A DNA stretch of 64,000 nucleotides from IMG/VR virus record IMGVR_UViG_3300037507_003370, positions 1-64,000 of that record; one strand, 5' to 3'. Both the position numbers and the translations under genes were made by a program. Shown here piece after piece: positions 9,475 through 12,844 of the stretch (the first letter of the stretch is position 1; every line of letters begins with the position of its first letter). The stretch comes from a virus. Its lineage: Duplodnaviria > Caudoviricetes. A model generated the notes under the pieces. It had not been told where the DNA came from. It saw only the letters and a program-made list of their open reading frames with translations, and ran no database searches.

Positions 9475-9564
9475 TAAGAAAATCTTTGAGAAAAATAAAA
9501 ATAATCTTGTGCCAAAATATTTTATTTTCTTAAACAGAAGATCGTATCGATCAGCATATTAGTC

Positions 9565-9644
9565 GTAAGTATATATGCCATAACGCTTTAGATCAAACTG
9601 GGTCCGCCCGCATTTTTCTAAATGATTAGATGTCAAGATTTTGT
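9565..9644. repeat. 80-bp double-palindrome element
   Basis: GTAAGTATATA-N5-TAACGCTTTAG / 26 bp / CTAAATGATTA-N5-CAAGATTTTGT. Confidence 0.85.
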
Positions 9645-9677
9645 ATCATCAAATCTTTGAGCACTAGTGTACGGATG

Positions 9678-10070
9678 TCACCCCTCCGAGAAGGGGGAGA
9701 CTTCCTCTCCACAAGCAAGAATCGCCTCATACTGTGCGGCCAATGCGGCCTTACGTTCAGCCGAACCTGGCTTGCCAACCTTTACGATCATAAGATCGTC
9801 ACCCCCCTTATAGCGGGGATCGGCTTTTTCAGCCTTGATACTACCAGCATTACGCAACGCCTTGCGATTGAACTTCAAAACCTTCTCGCTACGGATCGGG
9901 CCATATACCCCATCAGCGAGTGATGGTTGGTGAGGGATTGCGATTCCAAGAAAGCACATGCGAACCTGACGCTTGGCATCTTCGATAATCTTGAACTTGG
10001 TAGCCATTTTCTTTTTCTCTCTTGGTTGGTGATACTGGAATGATTCTAGGAAACTTTTCTCGCCTTGCAT
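9678..10070 (-). CDS. Hypothetical basic protein
   Basis: 130-aa ORF; alternative start MATK. Confidence 0.65.
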   Translation of the reverse strand: MQGEKSFLESFQYHQPREKKKMATKFKIIEDAKRQVRMCFLGIAIPHQPSLADGVYGPIRSEKVLKFNRKALRNAGSIKAEKADPRYKGGDDLMIVKVGKPGSAERKAALAAQYEAILACGEEVSPFSEG

Positions 10071-10077
10071 ACCCCCC

Positions 10078-10221
10078 TTATGGGCGAGAGTTCATGAACC
10101 TTTCGGCATTGTAAGAAGTTTTGAAGGTTGCCAGAAGCCTACGGGAATATCCGTTGGGATACTTGGTTTCCCTATAAACCTTATACTTACCCTTTACGAC
10201 GATTAGAACCAGCGTTTCCAT
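10078..10221 (-). CDS. 47-aa mini-protein, paralog family A
   Basis: KYKVYR...RRLLATFKTSYNAERFMN. Confidence 0.7.
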   Translation of the reverse strand: METLVLIVVKGKYKVYRETKYPNGYSRRLLATFKTSYNAERFMNSRP

Positions 10222-10254
10222 TTTCACTCTCTCTTTCTTATACCTATATATAGA

Positions 10255-10269
10255 GCAATCGGTGTGCCA
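10255..10269 (-). promoter_or_regulatory. sigma54-type -24/-12 motif
   Basis: TGGCACACCGATTGC vs consensus TGGCACG-N4-TTGC. Confidence 0.6.
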
Positions 10270-10341
10270 AACATAGATTATTCTTTTTTGCGTTTCGCTC
10301 GGGAAAAACGCTATGACATTTTTTGATCCCCCTTTTTAAGC

Positions 10342-10417
10342 GTAGCATTTTGCAACACCCTGTAGCATTTTGCGTTAGTGATTTTGGCCGTCAAACACTA
10401 CCATTGTAGCATTTTGC
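10342..10417. repeat. Three copies of GTAGCATTTTGC
   Basis: Exact 12-mers at 10342, 10362, 10406, each containing the GCA-N3-TGC dyad. Confidence 0.85.
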
Positions 10418-10472
10418 AACGGATTACCCATCTTACCATGCCTCTTTTTTAGGCTTAAAATTTTTTATTCCG

Positions 10473-10487
10473 CGGCACAGTATTTGC
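10473..10487 (+). promoter_or_regulatory. sigma54-type -24/-12 motif (divergent)
   Basis: CGGCACAGTATTTGC. Confidence 0.5.
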
Positions 10488-10501
10488 TATATTCACTAGT
10501 C

Positions 10502-10581
10502 ATAAGTCATTACGCCACAATGCTTTACGTCAAATCGGTGGTCCCGGATTTTTCGTAAATGATTATCCATCAAGGGTTTAC
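10502..10581. repeat. 80-bp double-palindrome element
   Basis: ATAAGTCATTA-N5-CAATGCTTTAC / 26 bp / GTAAATGATTA-N5-CAAGGGTTTAC. Confidence 0.9.
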
Positions 10582-10587
10582 GTCTAA

Positions 10588-10797
10588 TTACCCCCTATAC
10601 TTGGGGGGATAGCTCCCCATCCACACCATATGGTCTCGATACCCCTTCGCGTGGGGGGTTCCGTGCCTCTTGCGTATAAGTCGCAACTGTGCCGCCAGCG
10701 TCCCCCTATAAATAGGGGATGGGTCACGTTGAATCCATTCTCCAATCCACTTGTTCGCAGGAACAGCAACCAAAAGTCTATGATCGAAAACTTGCAT
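10588..10797 (-). CDS. Hypothetical protein
   Basis: ORF ends 6 nt from the element. Confidence 0.55.
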   Translation of the reverse strand: MQVFDHRLLVAVPANKWIGEWIQRDPSPIYRGTLAAQLRLIRKRHGTPHAKGYRDHMVWMGSYPPKYRG

Positions 10798-10808
10798 CTT
10801 TCCCCTTA

Positions 10809-11018
10809 TTATTTGCGAAGAGTAGCACCGTTCGCCTTAGCGTACCTATACATGGCACGCTCGTCAACCATGAAACGCTCTACGCCTTTCAGATCTTTGA
10901 AATCCCAATGGTAGGTAAGCACATCTGAACGAACCATCCAACGCGCTTCAACATCGGAAGTACGCTTGAGCGTGTAGCCTATCTTTTTCAACTCTTTTGC
11001 AATCGTTTTGCTGTTCAT
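10809..11018 (-). CDS. Hypothetical protein
   Basis: Coupled to upstream mini-protein. Confidence 0.7.
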   Translation of the reverse strand: MNSKTIAKELKKIGYTLKRTSDVEARWMVRSDVLTYHWDFKDLKGVERFMVDERAMYRYAKANGATLRK

Positions 11019-11021
11019 TTT

Positions 11022-11174
11022 TCACCTAGACGAAGAGATACGATTCATGAAGCGTATAGCATCTTCGGAAGTCTTGAACTTGCCTAGTAACTTACGATTT
11101 TTCCCGTCATACGCACCGGAAATAATCTGAAATACCTTGAAAACCTTACCGTGCTGTTCGAGCGAAGTGTTCAT
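11022..11174 (-). CDS. 50-aa mini-protein, paralog family A
   Basis: VFKVFQ...DGKNRKLLGKFKTSEDAIRFMN; GAGGAG RBS. Confidence 0.7.
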   Translation of the reverse strand: MNTSLEQHGKVFKVFQIISGAYDGKNRKLLGKFKTSEDAIRFMNRISSSR

Positions 11175-11203
11175 TTGTTTTCTCCTCTATTCCTTATATC
11201 GAC

Positions 11204-11232
11204 ATTATACCCGGTCATTCTTTAGATTGCAA
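11204..11232 (-). promoter_or_regulatory. sigma70-type promoter, class II
   Basis: TTGCAA-TCTAAAGaatgaccggg-TATAAT-gTCGATATAAG. Confidence 0.75.
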
Positions 11233-11411: not shown

Positions 11412-11446
11412 GTCAAGCCTTTCCCCCTAGTGGGGGGTGTATCCCC

Positions 11447-11683
11447 CTAGGCAAACTCCTCCTCGCCTTGGAAATCGTCGAGCCATTCATCATCCGTTTC
11501 GGGGTATTCGTCACCCATGATCGAATCATAGCCCTCTCCGTCATCGAGGCCCGGAATATAATCGTCATCGTCCCCGTATCCCGTTTCCCAGATGCTACCA
11601 TCTTCGGCTACCATTTCTTCCCAAGCCTTGAACATATCTTCCTCATTGATTTCGCTCATATCGTATACAAAGTCATTGCTCAT
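11447..11683 (-). CDS. Highly acidic protein
   Basis: D/E-rich 78 aa with a single Lys. Confidence 0.7.
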   Translation of the reverse strand: MSNDFVYDMSEINEEDMFKAWEEMVAEDGSIWETGYGDDDDYIPGLDDGEGYDSIMGDEYPETDDEWLDDFQGEEEFA

Positions 11684-11693
11684 TGTATGATCC

Positions 11694-11888
11694 TTATGCA
11701 AAAAGGTTTTCGGAAGTTTCGCTCATCTTATCGGCATAAAGGCTACGATACCCTATGCCATCATTCCGCGTATCATCTTCGATCATGATCGTGATCAACT
11801 CACGATTGCTCATCTTCTTGATTTCTACAACCAAGCCCGTATATCGCTTACCATCATACGTTGTCGAGATTTCTGTATTCAGTGTCAT
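11694..11888 (-). CDS. Small hypothetical protein
   Basis: Own promoter, AAAGGA RBS. Confidence 0.7.
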   Translation of the reverse strand: MTLNTEISTTYDGKRYTGLVVEIKKMSNRELITIMIEDDTRNDGIGYRSLYADKMSETSENLFA

Positions 11889-11905
11889 TTCTTTTCCTTT
11901 TCCCT

Positions 11906-11933
11906 AGTATACTTATCGGCAATCCTACGTCAA
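11906..11933 (-). promoter_or_regulatory. sigma70-type promoter, class I
   Basis: TTGACG-taggattgCCGATAAg-TATACT. Confidence 0.7.
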
Positions 11934-11953
11934 CCCCACTAGAAAATATTTTT

Positions 11954-12118
11954 TCAGTGAGCAAAAGCCGGAAGCCTTTTGATGATATTTACCCTACACC
12001 CATCCTCACCATCCCACTTATCGAAAGCGGCAGTAGTTGCCTGATCCTCAGTATAAAACGGGCCGATGAAATCCAGTTCACAATCCCAAGCGTCTACGAT
12101 TTGAGCGAAGTATGTCAT
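11954..12118 (-). CDS. 54-aa hypothetical protein (from MTYFAQ)
   Basis: GGGAG RBS behind class II promoter; upstream ORF extension overlaps the promoter. Confidence 0.65.
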   Translation of the reverse strand: MTYFAQIVDAWDCELDFIGPFYTEDQATTAAFDKWDGEDGCRVNIIKRLPAFAH

Positions 12119-12148
12119 TTCTTTTTCTCCCTTTTCTCTTATATCGTC

Positions 12149-12176
12149 ATTATACAGAATCCACTTTAGATTGCAA
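12149..12176 (-). promoter_or_regulatory. sigma70-type promoter, class II
   Basis: TTGCAA-TCTAAAGtggattctg-TATAAT-gACGATATAAG. Confidence 0.75.
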
Positions 12177-12214
12177 GCACAAAGTTTCCTTACAATGTCG
12201 TAAGGATACCAGTA

Positions 12215-12229
12215 GCAAATGTCATACCA
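12215..12229 (-). promoter_or_regulatory. sigma54-type -24/-12 motif
   Basis: TGGTATGACATTTGC. Confidence 0.5.
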
Positions 12230-12280
12230 AGAATATAGTATTCCCTTAAACATAACATCGTGTCGATCATATGATTAGCC

Positions 12281-12342
12281 ATAAGTCTATATACAGCAAT
12301 ACTTTACGTCAAATCGGGCCGCCCCATTTTTCTAAATTTAAC
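12281..12342. repeat. 80-bp element, partial
   Basis: ATAAGTCTATA-N5-CAATACTTTAC, spacer with CGGGCCGC, second palindrome decayed. Confidence 0.7.
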
Positions 12343-12351
12343 ATACCCCCC

Positions 12352-12564
12352 TTAGGTAGCATGTATGAATACTTGTTCATTTTTTGTCTTGTTAGTAATG
12401 CTCACAATCCAGTTACGCCCACTACCATCCTCACGCATGATAGCATTGATGATGCCCACATGAGCGTTGCCCTTTGGGTCAATCACACTGCCATACTTGC
12501 CAGCACGCATAGCGGCCATAATCTTGTCGAGGCTATTCATTTTCTTTTCCTGTAGAGTGATCAT
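12352..12564 (-). CDS. Hypothetical protein
   Basis: Behind promoter 12565-12593; likely start MNSL. Confidence 0.7.
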   Translation of the reverse strand: MITLQEKKMNSLDKIMAAMRAGKYGSVIDPKGNAHVGIINAIMREDGSGRNWIVSITNKTKNEQVFIHAT

Positions 12565-12593
12565 ACTATATACCTTATTCCCTTACTTGTCAA
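12565..12593 (-). promoter_or_regulatory. sigma70-type promoter
   Basis: TTGACA-17-TATAGT. Confidence 0.7.
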
Positions 12594-12727
12594 GAGGCAT
12601 TCATGAATCGGATGGCTTCTTCACTATTCTTGAACGTACCAAGCAACTTCCTATTTTTCCCATCATTCTTATTCGAATCCATCCTATATACCTTATACTT
12701 CTTACCAACCTGAATGAGAGTCAGCAT
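12590..12727 (-). CDS. 45-aa mini-protein, paralog family A
   Basis: KYKVYR...DGKNRKLLGTFKNSEEAIRFMN. Confidence 0.7.
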   Translation of the reverse strand: MLTLIQVGKKYKVYRMDSNKNDGKNRKLLGTFKNSEEAIRFMNAS

Positions 12728-12754
12728 TTTGGCCTTTCTTTCTTGTGTGCTGCT

Positions 12755-12782
12755 ATTATACCATATTTATCGGCCATTGCAA
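12755..12782 (-). promoter_or_regulatory. sigma70-type promoter, class I
   Basis: TTGCAA-tggCCGATAAatatgg-TATAAT. Confidence 0.7.
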
Positions 12783-12829
12783 GACAAATCTTGAAATATA
12801 TTTTCGTGCCAAATAAAAATATTTTTAGA

Positions 12830-12844
12830 GCAAATTTCGTGCCA
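12830..12844 (-). promoter_or_regulatory. sigma54-type -24/-12 motif
   Basis: TGGCACGAAATTTGC, exact consensus. Confidence 0.65.

What the first reader, a model, noticed from the sequence alone, without database searches (positions are those of the whole stretch)
9500..12844. Cluster of sigma54 (-24/-12) promoter motifs in a phage early region
Seen: TGGCACGAAATTTGC (12830, exact consensus), TGGCACACCGATTGC (10255), TGGCATGATATTTGC (11271) and TGGTATGACATTTGC (12215) on the minus strand; divergent CGGCACAGTATTTGC (10473) and TAGCACACCGTTTGC (11303) on the plus strand; -24-only copies at 9500 and 12797. At 10255 the predicted start falls near a TATAAG leader like those of class II promoters. 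At 11271, 12215 and 12830 the site lies tandem upstream of a sigma70 promoter. Known: sigma54 holoenzyme needs an enhancer-binding ATPase and can repress when unactivated; to my knowledge its use by phages is rarely described. Inference: host-state-gated early transcription, or sigma54 titration.
Basis: partly seen in the sequence, partly recalled or inferred. Interest (0 to 1): 0.72.

Follow-up and report, generated by a model that had tools for sequence, protein, structure and literature searches.

The report
Sigma-54-type boxes in phage early cassettes
An uncultured lake phage and hundreds of its relatives carry textbook binding sites for the bacterial alternative sigma factor sigma-54 inside a short block of their early control regions, yet encode no recognisable activator, and most sites in the family point away from any gene, so plain sigma-54 promoters explain only some of them.

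Summary
All six full motifs are at the stated coordinates. With a weight matrix trained only on relatives, they are the six best hits in the 64-kb window (18.6-25.7 bits; the next best hit scores 14.5, which is background).

- **Half-sites:** the two "-24-only" copies score at background. They look like decayed copies.
- **Conservation:** in about 600 related IMG/VR contigs the spacing is rigid. In four complete 150-230 kb relatives every exact match lies in one 4-5 kb block of the early region.
- **Consensus:** the positions I did not search for follow the canonical sigma-54 consensus, in this family and in 120 unrelated viral contigs.
- **Site 10255:** this is a complete enhancer-type unit. 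It has three conserved 15-bp dyads about 105-170 bp upstream and no sigma-70 promoter. Its predicted start gives the usual cassette leader, and a divergent partner lies at 10473.
- **Sites 11271, 12215 and 12830:** each lies 38-47 bp upstream of a strong sigma-70 promoter.
- **Against a plain promoter reading:** family-wide, 126 of 205 sites face away from genes. Five complete relatives encode no bEBP or rpoN. The host is unknown and no RNA data exist.

Best reading: these are host sigma-54 holoenzyme sites, some of them real promoters. This scan has already reported similar sigma-54 box arrays in other, unrelated phage contigs.

The parts
12830..12844 (-). Exact sigma-54-type box (cassette A). 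It lies 47 nt upstream of the -35 of a sigma-70 promoter.
   Evidence: 25.6 bits
12797..12811 (-). TGGCAC half-site without a -12 box. It is not significant as a full site.
12755..12782 (-). Sigma-70 promoter of cassette A (TTGCAA-16-TATAAT, with a TG extension).
12590..12727 (-). Mini-protein gene (45 aa), first gene of cassette A. It is a paralogue of 11022-11174 and 10078-10221.
   Evidence: 58% and 52% identity
12215..12229 (-). Sigma-54-type box with two mismatches (TGGTAT...TTGC), cassette B. It lies 38 nt upstream of the -35.
   Evidence: 18.6 bits
12188..12205 (.). Palindrome CCTTAC-N6-GTAAGG between the box and the sigma-70 -35. It is conserved in all 10 aligned cassettes.
12149..12176 (-). 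Sigma-70 promoter of cassette B.
11303..11317 (+). Reverse (gene-less) box of the back-to-back pair in cassette C. This copy is decayed (TAG for TGG); the orthologous sites in relatives read TGGCA.
   Evidence: 21.2 bits
11271..11285 (-). Forward box of cassette C (TGGCAT...TTGC). It lies 38 nt upstream of the -35.
   Evidence: 25.7 bits
11244..11261 (.). Imperfect copy of the CCTTAC-N6-GTAAGG palindrome.
   Evidence: (family D13)
11204..11232 (-). Sigma-70 promoter of cassette C.
11022..11174 (-). Mini-protein gene (50 aa), first gene of cassette C.
10473..10487 (+). Reverse box of the divergent pair in cassette D (CGGCAC...TTGC). Its predicted start is near 10499, and no credible ORF lies downstream.
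   Evidence: 20.0 bits
10342..10420 (.). Three 15-bp dyads (GTAGCA-N3-TGCTAC type) with centres 20 and 44 bp apart. They lie about 105-170 bp upstream of the 10255 start and about 86-150 bp upstream of the 10473 start, and are candidate enhancer sites.
   Evidence: arms conserved in 4 relatives; in L055 only the A/T run between the arms differs
10255..10269 (-). Exact sigma-54-type box 33 nt before the start codon, with no sigma-70 promoter. The predicted start near 10243 would give the same TATAAG...GAGAG leader as the sigma-70 cassettes.
   Evidence: 24.7 bits
10078..10221 (-). Mini-protein gene (47 aa) directly behind the 10255 box.
9500..9514 (-). TGGCAC half-site in cassette E. It sits at the place in the conserved GTTTAAG...ATATT block that the full box holds in cassettes A and B, so it is probably a decayed copy.
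   Evidence: family D3; 8.3 bits
9447..9474 (-). Consensus sigma-70 promoter of cassette E (12 of 12 matches).
9121..9420 (-). IHF/HU-family (DNABII) gene. It scores better with IHF models than with HU models.

Best explanation
The boxes are binding sites for the host's sigma-54 (RpoN) RNA polymerase holoenzyme. They are built into the modular control regions of a 3.4-kb block of early gene cassettes.

In this window, site 10255 is a complete enhancer-dependent promoter for a mini-protein gene. It shares three dyad enhancer sites with a divergent partner at 10473. Sites 11271, 12215 and 12830 are secondary sigma-54 promoters placed in tandem, 38-47 bp upstream of strong sigma-70 early promoters. 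The same cassettes could therefore be read under a second, activator-gated regime. The plus-strand partners (10473, 11303) fire away from the genes. They would give non-coding or antisense RNA across the 3' end of the neighbouring early gene.

The ATPase activator is not a recognisable phage gene. It would be either a host bEBP or a non-canonical phage factor.

Shown: the sequence, spacing, conservation and layout of the sites. Inferred: sigma-54 binding, transcription starts, and the identity of the activator.
For: 1. The six sites stand far above background.
2. The spacing is rigid in the family: 148 unique sites with N5, against 17 or fewer for every other spacing from N1 to N11.
3. In four complete 150-230 kb relatives all 16 exact matches lie in one 4-5 kb early block. 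The reversed-pattern control found 0.
4. Positions I did not select for match YTGGCACGrNNNTTGCW. In the family, -27 is T in 85%, -20 is R in 99% and -11 is W in 89%. In 120 unrelated viral contigs of 28-68% GC, -20 is G 67% / A 32%, -11 is W in 84% and -27 is Y in 74%. This points to a shared host factor and not to a lineage-specific phage protein.
5. The D unit is conserved as islands in four relatives: reverse box, three dyads, forward box, then the leader. It has no sigma-70 promoter. The predicted +1 gives the same leader as the sigma-70 cassettes.
6. The forward box keeps a fixed register to the palindrome and the sigma-70 promoter in 10 aligned cassettes from 6 genomes.
7. Forward sites in the family lie 31-39 nt or 87-107 nt before a gene with a Shine-Dalgarno sequence.
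8. No phage multi-subunit RNA polymerase (beta subunit) was found that could use the box instead. The search for a T7-type polymerase was uninformative, because its control found nothing in any genome.
9. There is a published precedent: a sigma-54-like promoter of phage YuA with a mapped start (PMC10914365).
Against: 1. The host is unknown, so the presence of rpoN cannot be checked.
2. No bEBP, rpoN DNA-binding domain or rpoN core-binding domain was found in five complete relatives. The only PF00158 hits are a RuvB-like AAA+ protein.
3. Of the family's 205 sites, 126 (69 of the 94 exact ones) point away from genes, and only 15 of these have any ORF within 400 nt.
4. Sites occur 20-26 nt apart in mirror or tandem arrangements that cannot all be occupied as promoters.
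5. In some relatives a reverse box is followed within about 10 nt by a terminator hairpin.
6. One complete relative (G002) has no box at all, so the feature is dispensable.
7. RNA predicted downstream of the reverse boxes is not clearly structured (z -0.6 and -2.0).
8. 11303 has lost the first G of the GG doublet.
Confidence: 0.5

Rival explanations
1. The boxes do bind sigma-54 holoenzyme but mostly do not fire. They would act as high-affinity parking sites, with three possible uses: a sponge that titrates the scarce sigma-54 once the phage DNA replicates, a head-on roadblock or insulator between early cassettes, or an architectural element upstream of the sigma-70 promoters.
For: 1. Most sites, and the best ones, face away from genes.
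2. Mirror pairs and tandem copies lie 20-26 nt apart.
3. Reverse boxes sit at preferred distances from the sigma-70 -35 (31-33, 42-44, 52-56 and 64 nt, roughly one-turn steps).
4. Some are followed at once by a terminator.
5. No activator is encoded.
6. Exact mirror pairs occur in at least 120 viral contigs, some as arrays of 3-4 pairs, but in none of 401 bacterial genomes searched.
7. Sigma-54 holoenzyme is known to bind DNA stably in a transcriptionally inactive state (PMC4591121 abstract).
Against: 1. The D unit has a gene at the right distance, three dyads at enhancer distance and no other promoter.
2. Forward boxes keep promoter-like distances to genes.
3. The distance clusters may only reflect shared ancestry of the cassettes.
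4. No benefit of titration has been shown for any phage.
Confidence: 0.22
2. The motif is the site of another DNA-binding protein (a phage early regulator or another host factor) and only resembles the sigma-54 consensus. The TGGCA element would be its half-site.
For: 1. Orientation is variable at the same place in the cassette, which is typical of operator sites.
2. Relatives carry a second abundant element, the palindrome TGCCA-N3-TGGCA, in the same intergenic regions: 114 contexts counted over both strands, so about 57 places.
3. The host is unknown and may lack rpoN.
4. Other conserved palindromes in the cassettes show that regulators do act here.
Against: 1. All ten core positions, the rigid N5 spacing and four flanking preferences would have to match sigma-54 by coincidence.
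2. The same extended consensus recurs in unrelated viral contigs of 28-68% GC, with mirror-pair gaps of 3 to 8 nt all in use. This argues against one rigid dimeric binder and for a universal host factor.
3. The window itself has no TGCCA-N3-TGGCA palindrome.
Confidence: 0.2
3. The boxes are passengers of duplicated intergenic cassettes and have no function of their own.
For: 11271 and 12215 lie in one duplicated segment. Several window copies are decayed (11303, 9500, 12797). One complete relative lacks the box.
Against: 1. In alignments the box is an island of identity among diverged flanks.
2. The spacer varies while the GG and GC elements and the spacing stay fixed.
3. The box occurs in different cassette types and in unrelated phages.
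Confidence: 0.05

Closest known systems
Sigma-54-like promoter of Pseudomonas phage YuA (Ceyssens et al. 2008, as cited in PMC10914365, which mapped a start at promoter P015)
   Same: It is a phage genome carrying a host sigma-54-type promoter alongside sigma-70-type promoters, with no phage-encoded classical activator reported.
   Different: YuA has a single reported site in a cultured Pseudomonas phage. Here there are six sites in 3.4 kb (up to 16 in relatives), arranged in back-to-back or mirror pairs. Most face away from genes, and they sit upstream of sigma-70 early promoters. Nothing here has been tested experimentally.
Classical bacterial enhancer-dependent sigma-54 promoters with upstream activator dyads (for example glnAp2 with NtrC sites, nifH with NifA sites; from my own knowledge)
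   Same: The -24 GG and -12 GC boxes have exact spacing. Dyad sites lie in helical phase about 100-170 bp upstream. An A/T-rich stretch lies between them. Divergent promoters share one enhancer (the D unit, 10255-10487).
   Different: The activator is unknown. No IHF consensus site was found. The dyad sequence (GTAGCA-N3-TGCTAC) matches no activator site that I know. The cargo is a 47-aa phage protein.
Dual sigma-70 / sigma-54 promoter arrangements (glnAp1/p2; overlapping promoters of glmY and glmZ, PMC3045617)
   Same: One gene is served by both a sigma-70 and a sigma-54 promoter (cassettes A, B and C).
   Different: Here the sigma-54 box lies 38-47 bp upstream of the -35, with a conserved palindrome between the two. 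In relatives it is usually paired with an oppositely oriented box.
Intragenic and antisense sigma-54 binding sites of E. coli (Bonocora et al. 2015, PMC4591121)
   Same: Many sigma-54 sites do not head genes, and the holoenzyme binds them in an inactive state.
   Different: The bacterial sites are scattered across the genome. The phage sites are concentrated about 100-fold, intergenic, paired and conserved across a phage family.

Membership tests
Sigma-54 (RpoN) dependent promoter | GG at -24 and GC at -12 with an invariant 10-bp spacing | tested here: met
   Five of the six window sites have both doublets; 11303 has AG for GG. Family-wide, N5 spacing gives 148 unique sites, against 17 or fewer for other spacings.
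Sigma-54 (RpoN) dependent promoter | Extended consensus YTGGCACGrNNNTTGCW, including positions outside the two doublets | tested here: met
   In the family, T is at -27 in 85%, R at -20 in 99% and W at -11 in 89%. The same holds in 120 unrelated viral contigs. The consensus itself is quoted from my own knowledge (Barrios et al. 1999).
Sigma-54 (RpoN) dependent promoter | The box lies about 12 nt upstream of a transcription start that serves a gene | tested here: inconclusive
   The geometry fits for 10255 (33 nt to the ATG, usual leader) and is possible for 11271, 12215 and 12830. It fails for 10473 and 11303, and for 111 of the family's 126 reverse sites, which have no ORF. No start-site data exist.
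Sigma-54 (RpoN) dependent promoter | Enhancer (activator binding sites) roughly 80-150 bp upstream | tested here: inconclusive
   Three conserved dyads lie at about -105, -125 and -169 from the predicted 10255 start, and about -86 to -150 from the 10473 start. No comparable dyads were identified for cassettes A, B and C, and the binder is unknown.
Sigma-54 (RpoN) dependent promoter | A bEBP (AAA+ protein with a GAFTGA loop) is available to activate | tested here: not met
   None is encoded by five complete relatives; the only PF00158 hits are RuvB-like. The window's own genome could not be searched. A host activator, or a non-canonical phage AAA+ protein such as the proposed Htm (bioRxiv 10.64898/2026.10.06.757011), remains possible.
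Sigma-54 (RpoN) dependent promoter | The host encodes rpoN | not testable with these tools
   The host is unknown. Three of five MAG bins that hold relatives' contigs encode rpoN, but binning is not evidence of the host. Sigma-70-type promoters, strong Shine-Dalgarno sites and an IHF-like gene hint weakly at a proteobacterium-like host.
Sigma-54 (RpoN) dependent promoter | Sigma-54 holoenzyme binds the site and forms an activator-dependent open complex | not testable with these tools
   This needs EMSA, footprinting or in vitro transcription.

The most novel reading that the evidence does not exclude
Phages of many lineages use dense, paired arrays of high-affinity sigma-54 boxes as a device of their own. 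Most boxes are not in front of genes and sit beside strong sigma-70 early promoters. The arrays would capture host sigma-54 holoenzyme and act as a sponge, an insulator or roadblock, or a source of antisense RNA that shuts off early genes. Activation would be independent of a classical phage-encoded activator. The window's family would be one large, conserved example of this.
Probability: 0.3. Interest if true: 0.8.

Novelty: new variant of a known kind. Interest (0 to 1): 0.6.

Why it matters
Sigma-54 is the one bacterial sigma factor that cannot start transcription without an ATP-driven activator. Apart from single promoters such as that of phage YuA, I found no account of phages using it.

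Here a family of about 600 uncultured lake phages keeps clusters of textbook sigma-54 boxes in its host-takeover region without encoding an activator. Mirror-image pairs of the same box occur in at least 120 other viral contigs, yet in none of 401 bacterial genomes searched.

If the boxes fire, phage early or accessory genes are tied to a host signalling state, and an unknown activator must exist. If they do not fire, phages are using sigma-54 holoenzyme as a DNA-bound tool or are disarming it.

Either outcome can be tested with synthetic DNA and purified E. coli components, although the phage itself is uncultured.

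Tried and rejected
- **Expression data:** no RNA holder was listed for the stretch, and only lake-water DNA runs hold it, so starts could not be mapped.
- **Near relatives in the cultured-phage collection:** none by megablast. The large terminase subunit is only about 25% identical to Bacillus and Microcystis phage proteins.
- **Host identification:** not resolved. Relatives' contigs are binned in MAGs labelled Rickettsiales, Alphaproteobacteria, Flavobacteriales, Silvanigrellaceae and SAR202, which probably reflects base composition.
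- **TTGGCA read as a sigma-70 -35 box:** rejected, because no conserved -10 follows at 16-18 nt.
- **The box as promoter of a phage RNA polymerase:** no beta-subunit gene was found. The T7-type search found nothing, but its control found nothing either, so it is uninformative. The phage sigma-70-family gene does not fit a motif whose two boxes are one helical turn apart.
- **Mirror pairs as RNA hairpins:** rejected, because only the conserved ends would pair and the spacers do not co-vary (by inspection).
- **A structured small RNA downstream of the reverse boxes:** z-scores of -0.6 and -2.0 are not convincing.
- **IHF consensus WATCARNNNNTTR in 9400-13000:** none found.
- **Families for the mini-proteins and the other early proteins:** none in Pfam, PHROGs or NCBIfam, and Atlas leads were below 0.9.
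- **Co-occurrence of the IHF-like gene with the boxes:** the gene is not in the relatives' 10-kb flanks.

Full report
**Setting**

The window comes from an uncultured lake-water phage. It carries a large terminase subunit (TerL) gene at 17565-19601 and a 4,648-aa tape measure gene. No whole genome is held for it, and it has no close relative among cultured phages.

Bases 1-13,000 hold short minus-strand genes at about 43% GC. The plus-strand structural genes further on have 30-38% GC. Each early gene or gene pair has its own control region. On the gene strand this region reads as follows:
- a boundary element (hairpin plus TTGACGTAAAG box);
- in cassettes A-E only, a stretch that carries the flagged motif;
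- a strong sigma-70 promoter;
- a purine-rich leader and the ATG.

Cassettes further left (5.2-9.1 kb) have the same build without the motif.

**Observation**

A search allowing one mismatch gives 11 hits in the window against 2.5 expected (0 of 100 shuffles). A 21-nt weight matrix trained only on relatives puts the six full sites first in the whole window, at 18.6-25.7 bits. The seventh hit scores 14.5 bits, the level reached by random sequence.

The two half-sites are at background as full sites. The one at 9500 sits where cassettes A and B have the full box, so it is probably a decayed copy. Sites 11271 and 12215 belong to one duplicated segment.

**Conservation**

The terminase finds about 600 IMG/VR contigs at about 80% amino-acid identity, some of 150-230 kb. 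Their early regions are full of the same box, often with more and better copies than the window (for example 7 exact and 16 near-exact in L014).
- The N5 spacing is rigid: 148 unique sites against 17 or fewer for any other spacing.
- In four complete relatives all 16 exact matches fall in one 4-5 kb block next to the early/late boundary. A reversed-pattern control gives none. A fifth complete genome has no box, and its cassettes go straight from boundary element to sigma-70 promoter.
- The box is therefore an optional, localised and conserved insert.

**Is it sigma-54?**

The positions that my search did not fix follow the canonical consensus YTGGCACGrNNNTTGCW (the consensus is from my own knowledge). 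In the family, -27 is T in 85%, -20 is a purine in 99% and -11 is A or T in 89%.

Their GC content ranges from 28 to 68%, and their sites show G/A at -20 (67/32%), W at -11 (84%) and Y at -27 (74%). Gaps of 3 to 8 nt between the mirrored boxes are all used, which does not fit one rigid dimeric binder. The same pattern was in none of 401 bacterial genomes searched.

A shared host factor explains this better than a lineage-specific phage protein. The complete relatives have no multi-subunit RNA polymerase gene. The T7-type search was blank, but so was its control. They do have a sigma-70-family gene (14396-15079 in the window), and a factor of that family would not read two boxes one helical turn apart. 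I put sigma-54 binding at about 0.75.

**Layouts in the window**

*Cassette D (10222-10587)* is the strongest case for a real promoter. The exact box at 10255 lies 33 nt before the start codon of a 47-aa gene. No sigma-70 promoter is present. A start 12 nt after the GC would give the same TATAAG...GAGAG leader that the sigma-70 cassettes produce.

Upstream lie three 15-bp dyads of the GTAGCA-N3-TGCTAC type. Their centres are 20 and 44 bp apart, about 105-170 bp from this start and 86-150 bp from the start of the opposite box at 10473. In four relatives the two boxes, the dyads and the leader stand out as conserved islands. In L055 the dyad arms are kept and only the A/T run between them differs, as expected for a dimer site. 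This is the layout of divergent enhancer-dependent promoters that share one enhancer.

*Cassettes B and C* follow a fixed register, kept in 10 cassettes from 6 genomes:
- a reverse box;
- about 17 nt of A/T;
- a forward box;
- 9 nt;
- the palindrome CCTTAC-N6-GTAAGG;
- 13 nt;
- the sigma-70 promoter.

The window keeps the reverse box only in C (11303, decayed). *Cassette A* has the exact box 47 nt upstream of the -35. The first gene behind A, C and D is the same mini-protein in three paralogous copies, and its function is unknown.

**What does not fit a simple promoter reading**

- Family-wide, 79 sites run with the genes. They lie 31-39 nt before a gene, or 87-107 nt before one with a sigma-70 promoter in between. 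Against these, 126 sites run against the genes, and only 15 of those have any ORF with a Shine-Dalgarno sequence within 400 nt. Exact-consensus sites are 69 reverse to 22 forward.
- Boxes occur in mirror or tandem arrangements 20-26 nt apart.
- In some relatives a reverse box is followed within about 10 nt by a terminator.
- Reverse boxes prefer distances of 31-33, 42-44, 52-56 and 64 nt from the sigma-70 -35. This may reflect helical phasing or only shared ancestry of the cassettes.
- RNA predicted downstream of the window's reverse boxes is not clearly structured.
- Five complete relatives encode no bEBP (the PF00158 hits are RuvB-like) and no rpoN domains.
- The host is unknown. Three of five MAG bins that contain relatives have rpoN, which is weak evidence.
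- An IHF-like gene lies at 9121-9420, but it is absent from the relatives' flanks and no IHF consensus site was found.

**Conclusion**

The best reading (0.5) is that these are host sigma-54 holoenzyme sites, of which at least 10255, and probably the three tandem forward boxes, act as activator-gated promoters. The reverse partners would give non-coding or antisense transcripts.

A non-firing role as sponge, roadblock or architectural element (0.22) explains the reverse and paired sites better, but explains cassette D worse. Another binder (0.2) cannot be excluded while the host is unknown. Pure hitch-hiking is unlikely (0.05).

**Literature**

- A sigma-54-like promoter with a mapped start exists in Pseudomonas phage YuA (PMC10914365).
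- A 2026 preprint proposes a phage AAA+ protein, Htm, without the GAFTGA loop as a possible sigma-54 modulator. My negative bEBP search therefore does not exclude a non-canonical phage activator.
- I found no paper describing arrays or pairs of sigma-54 boxes in phage genomes.
- Earlier follow-ups in this scan reported similar arrays on other, unrelated phage contigs. I re-tested their claim about mirror pairs.

Noticed in passing
window 5270-13000, minus strand (for example 12284-12330, 11326-11420, 10503-10590, 9568-9640, 7835-7912, 6773-6850, 5877-5954): Every early cassette starts with a boundary element. It is a GC-cored hairpin flanked by A and T runs, followed by a conserved TTGACGTAAAG...ACTTACG box pair. 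It is present with or without sigma-54 boxes, also in relatives that lack the boxes (L012). Its -10-like part is not conserved as a sigma-70 element, so it is probably a protein site or a terminator extension.
   Followed up: partly
window 12188-12205, 11244-11261, 8967-8984: The palindrome CCTTAC-N6-GTAAGG ends 13 nt upstream of the -35 of sigma-70 early promoters. Its centre lies about 22 nt upstream of the -35 hexamer, about 57 nt from the likely start. It is conserved in 10 aligned cassettes of 6 genomes and is a candidate operator or activator site for the early promoters.
   Followed up: partly
relatives, for example L028 4316-4370 and 5395-5440: A second cassette type in relatives replaces the CGTAAG boxes with repeated TGCCA-N3-TGGCA palindromes (114 contexts counted on both strands). 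They lie directly downstream of reverse sigma-54 boxes. The window has none.
   Followed up: partly
relatives L028 7268-7315; also L023, L065, L071, L072, L011: At the outer edge of the early region, a reverse sigma-54 box is followed within about 10 nt by a strong plus-strand terminator hairpin with a T run. This makes no sense for a productive promoter and remains unexplained.
   Followed up: no
window 14396-15079 (+): This is a sigma-70-family protein (region 2, 22.5 bits, just under the Pfam cut-off). It is conserved next to the box block in all five complete relatives and is presumably the phage's own late sigma factor.
   Followed up: partly
window 9121-9420 (-): This DNABII protein scores higher with IHF alpha and beta models (about 75 bits) than with HU models (about 50 bits). 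It is expressed from a perfect consensus sigma-70 promoter. It was not found in the 10-kb flanks of relatives.
   Followed up: partly
window 12590-12727, 11022-11174, 10078-10221 (-): Three paralogous mini-proteins of 45-50 aa (52-58% identical) are each the first gene behind a cassette with a forward sigma-54 box. They match no known family.
   Followed up: partly
window 9678-10007 (-): This 109-aa protein of unknown family is the most conserved early gene. It is found in 35 related loci at 52-93% identity, always on the minus strand, whether or not boxes are present.
   Followed up: no
window 13561-13974 (-) and 15869-16855 (+): These are an S-adenosylmethionine decarboxylase-like gene and a GDP-mannose 4,6-dehydratase gene. 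Both are auxiliary metabolic genes flanking the divergence point near 14190.
   Followed up: no
window 3561-3638 (-): ARAGORN reports a tRNA-like gene with an undetermined anticodon. It lies among normal tRNA-Asp, tRNA-Arg and tRNA-Glu genes.
   Followed up: no
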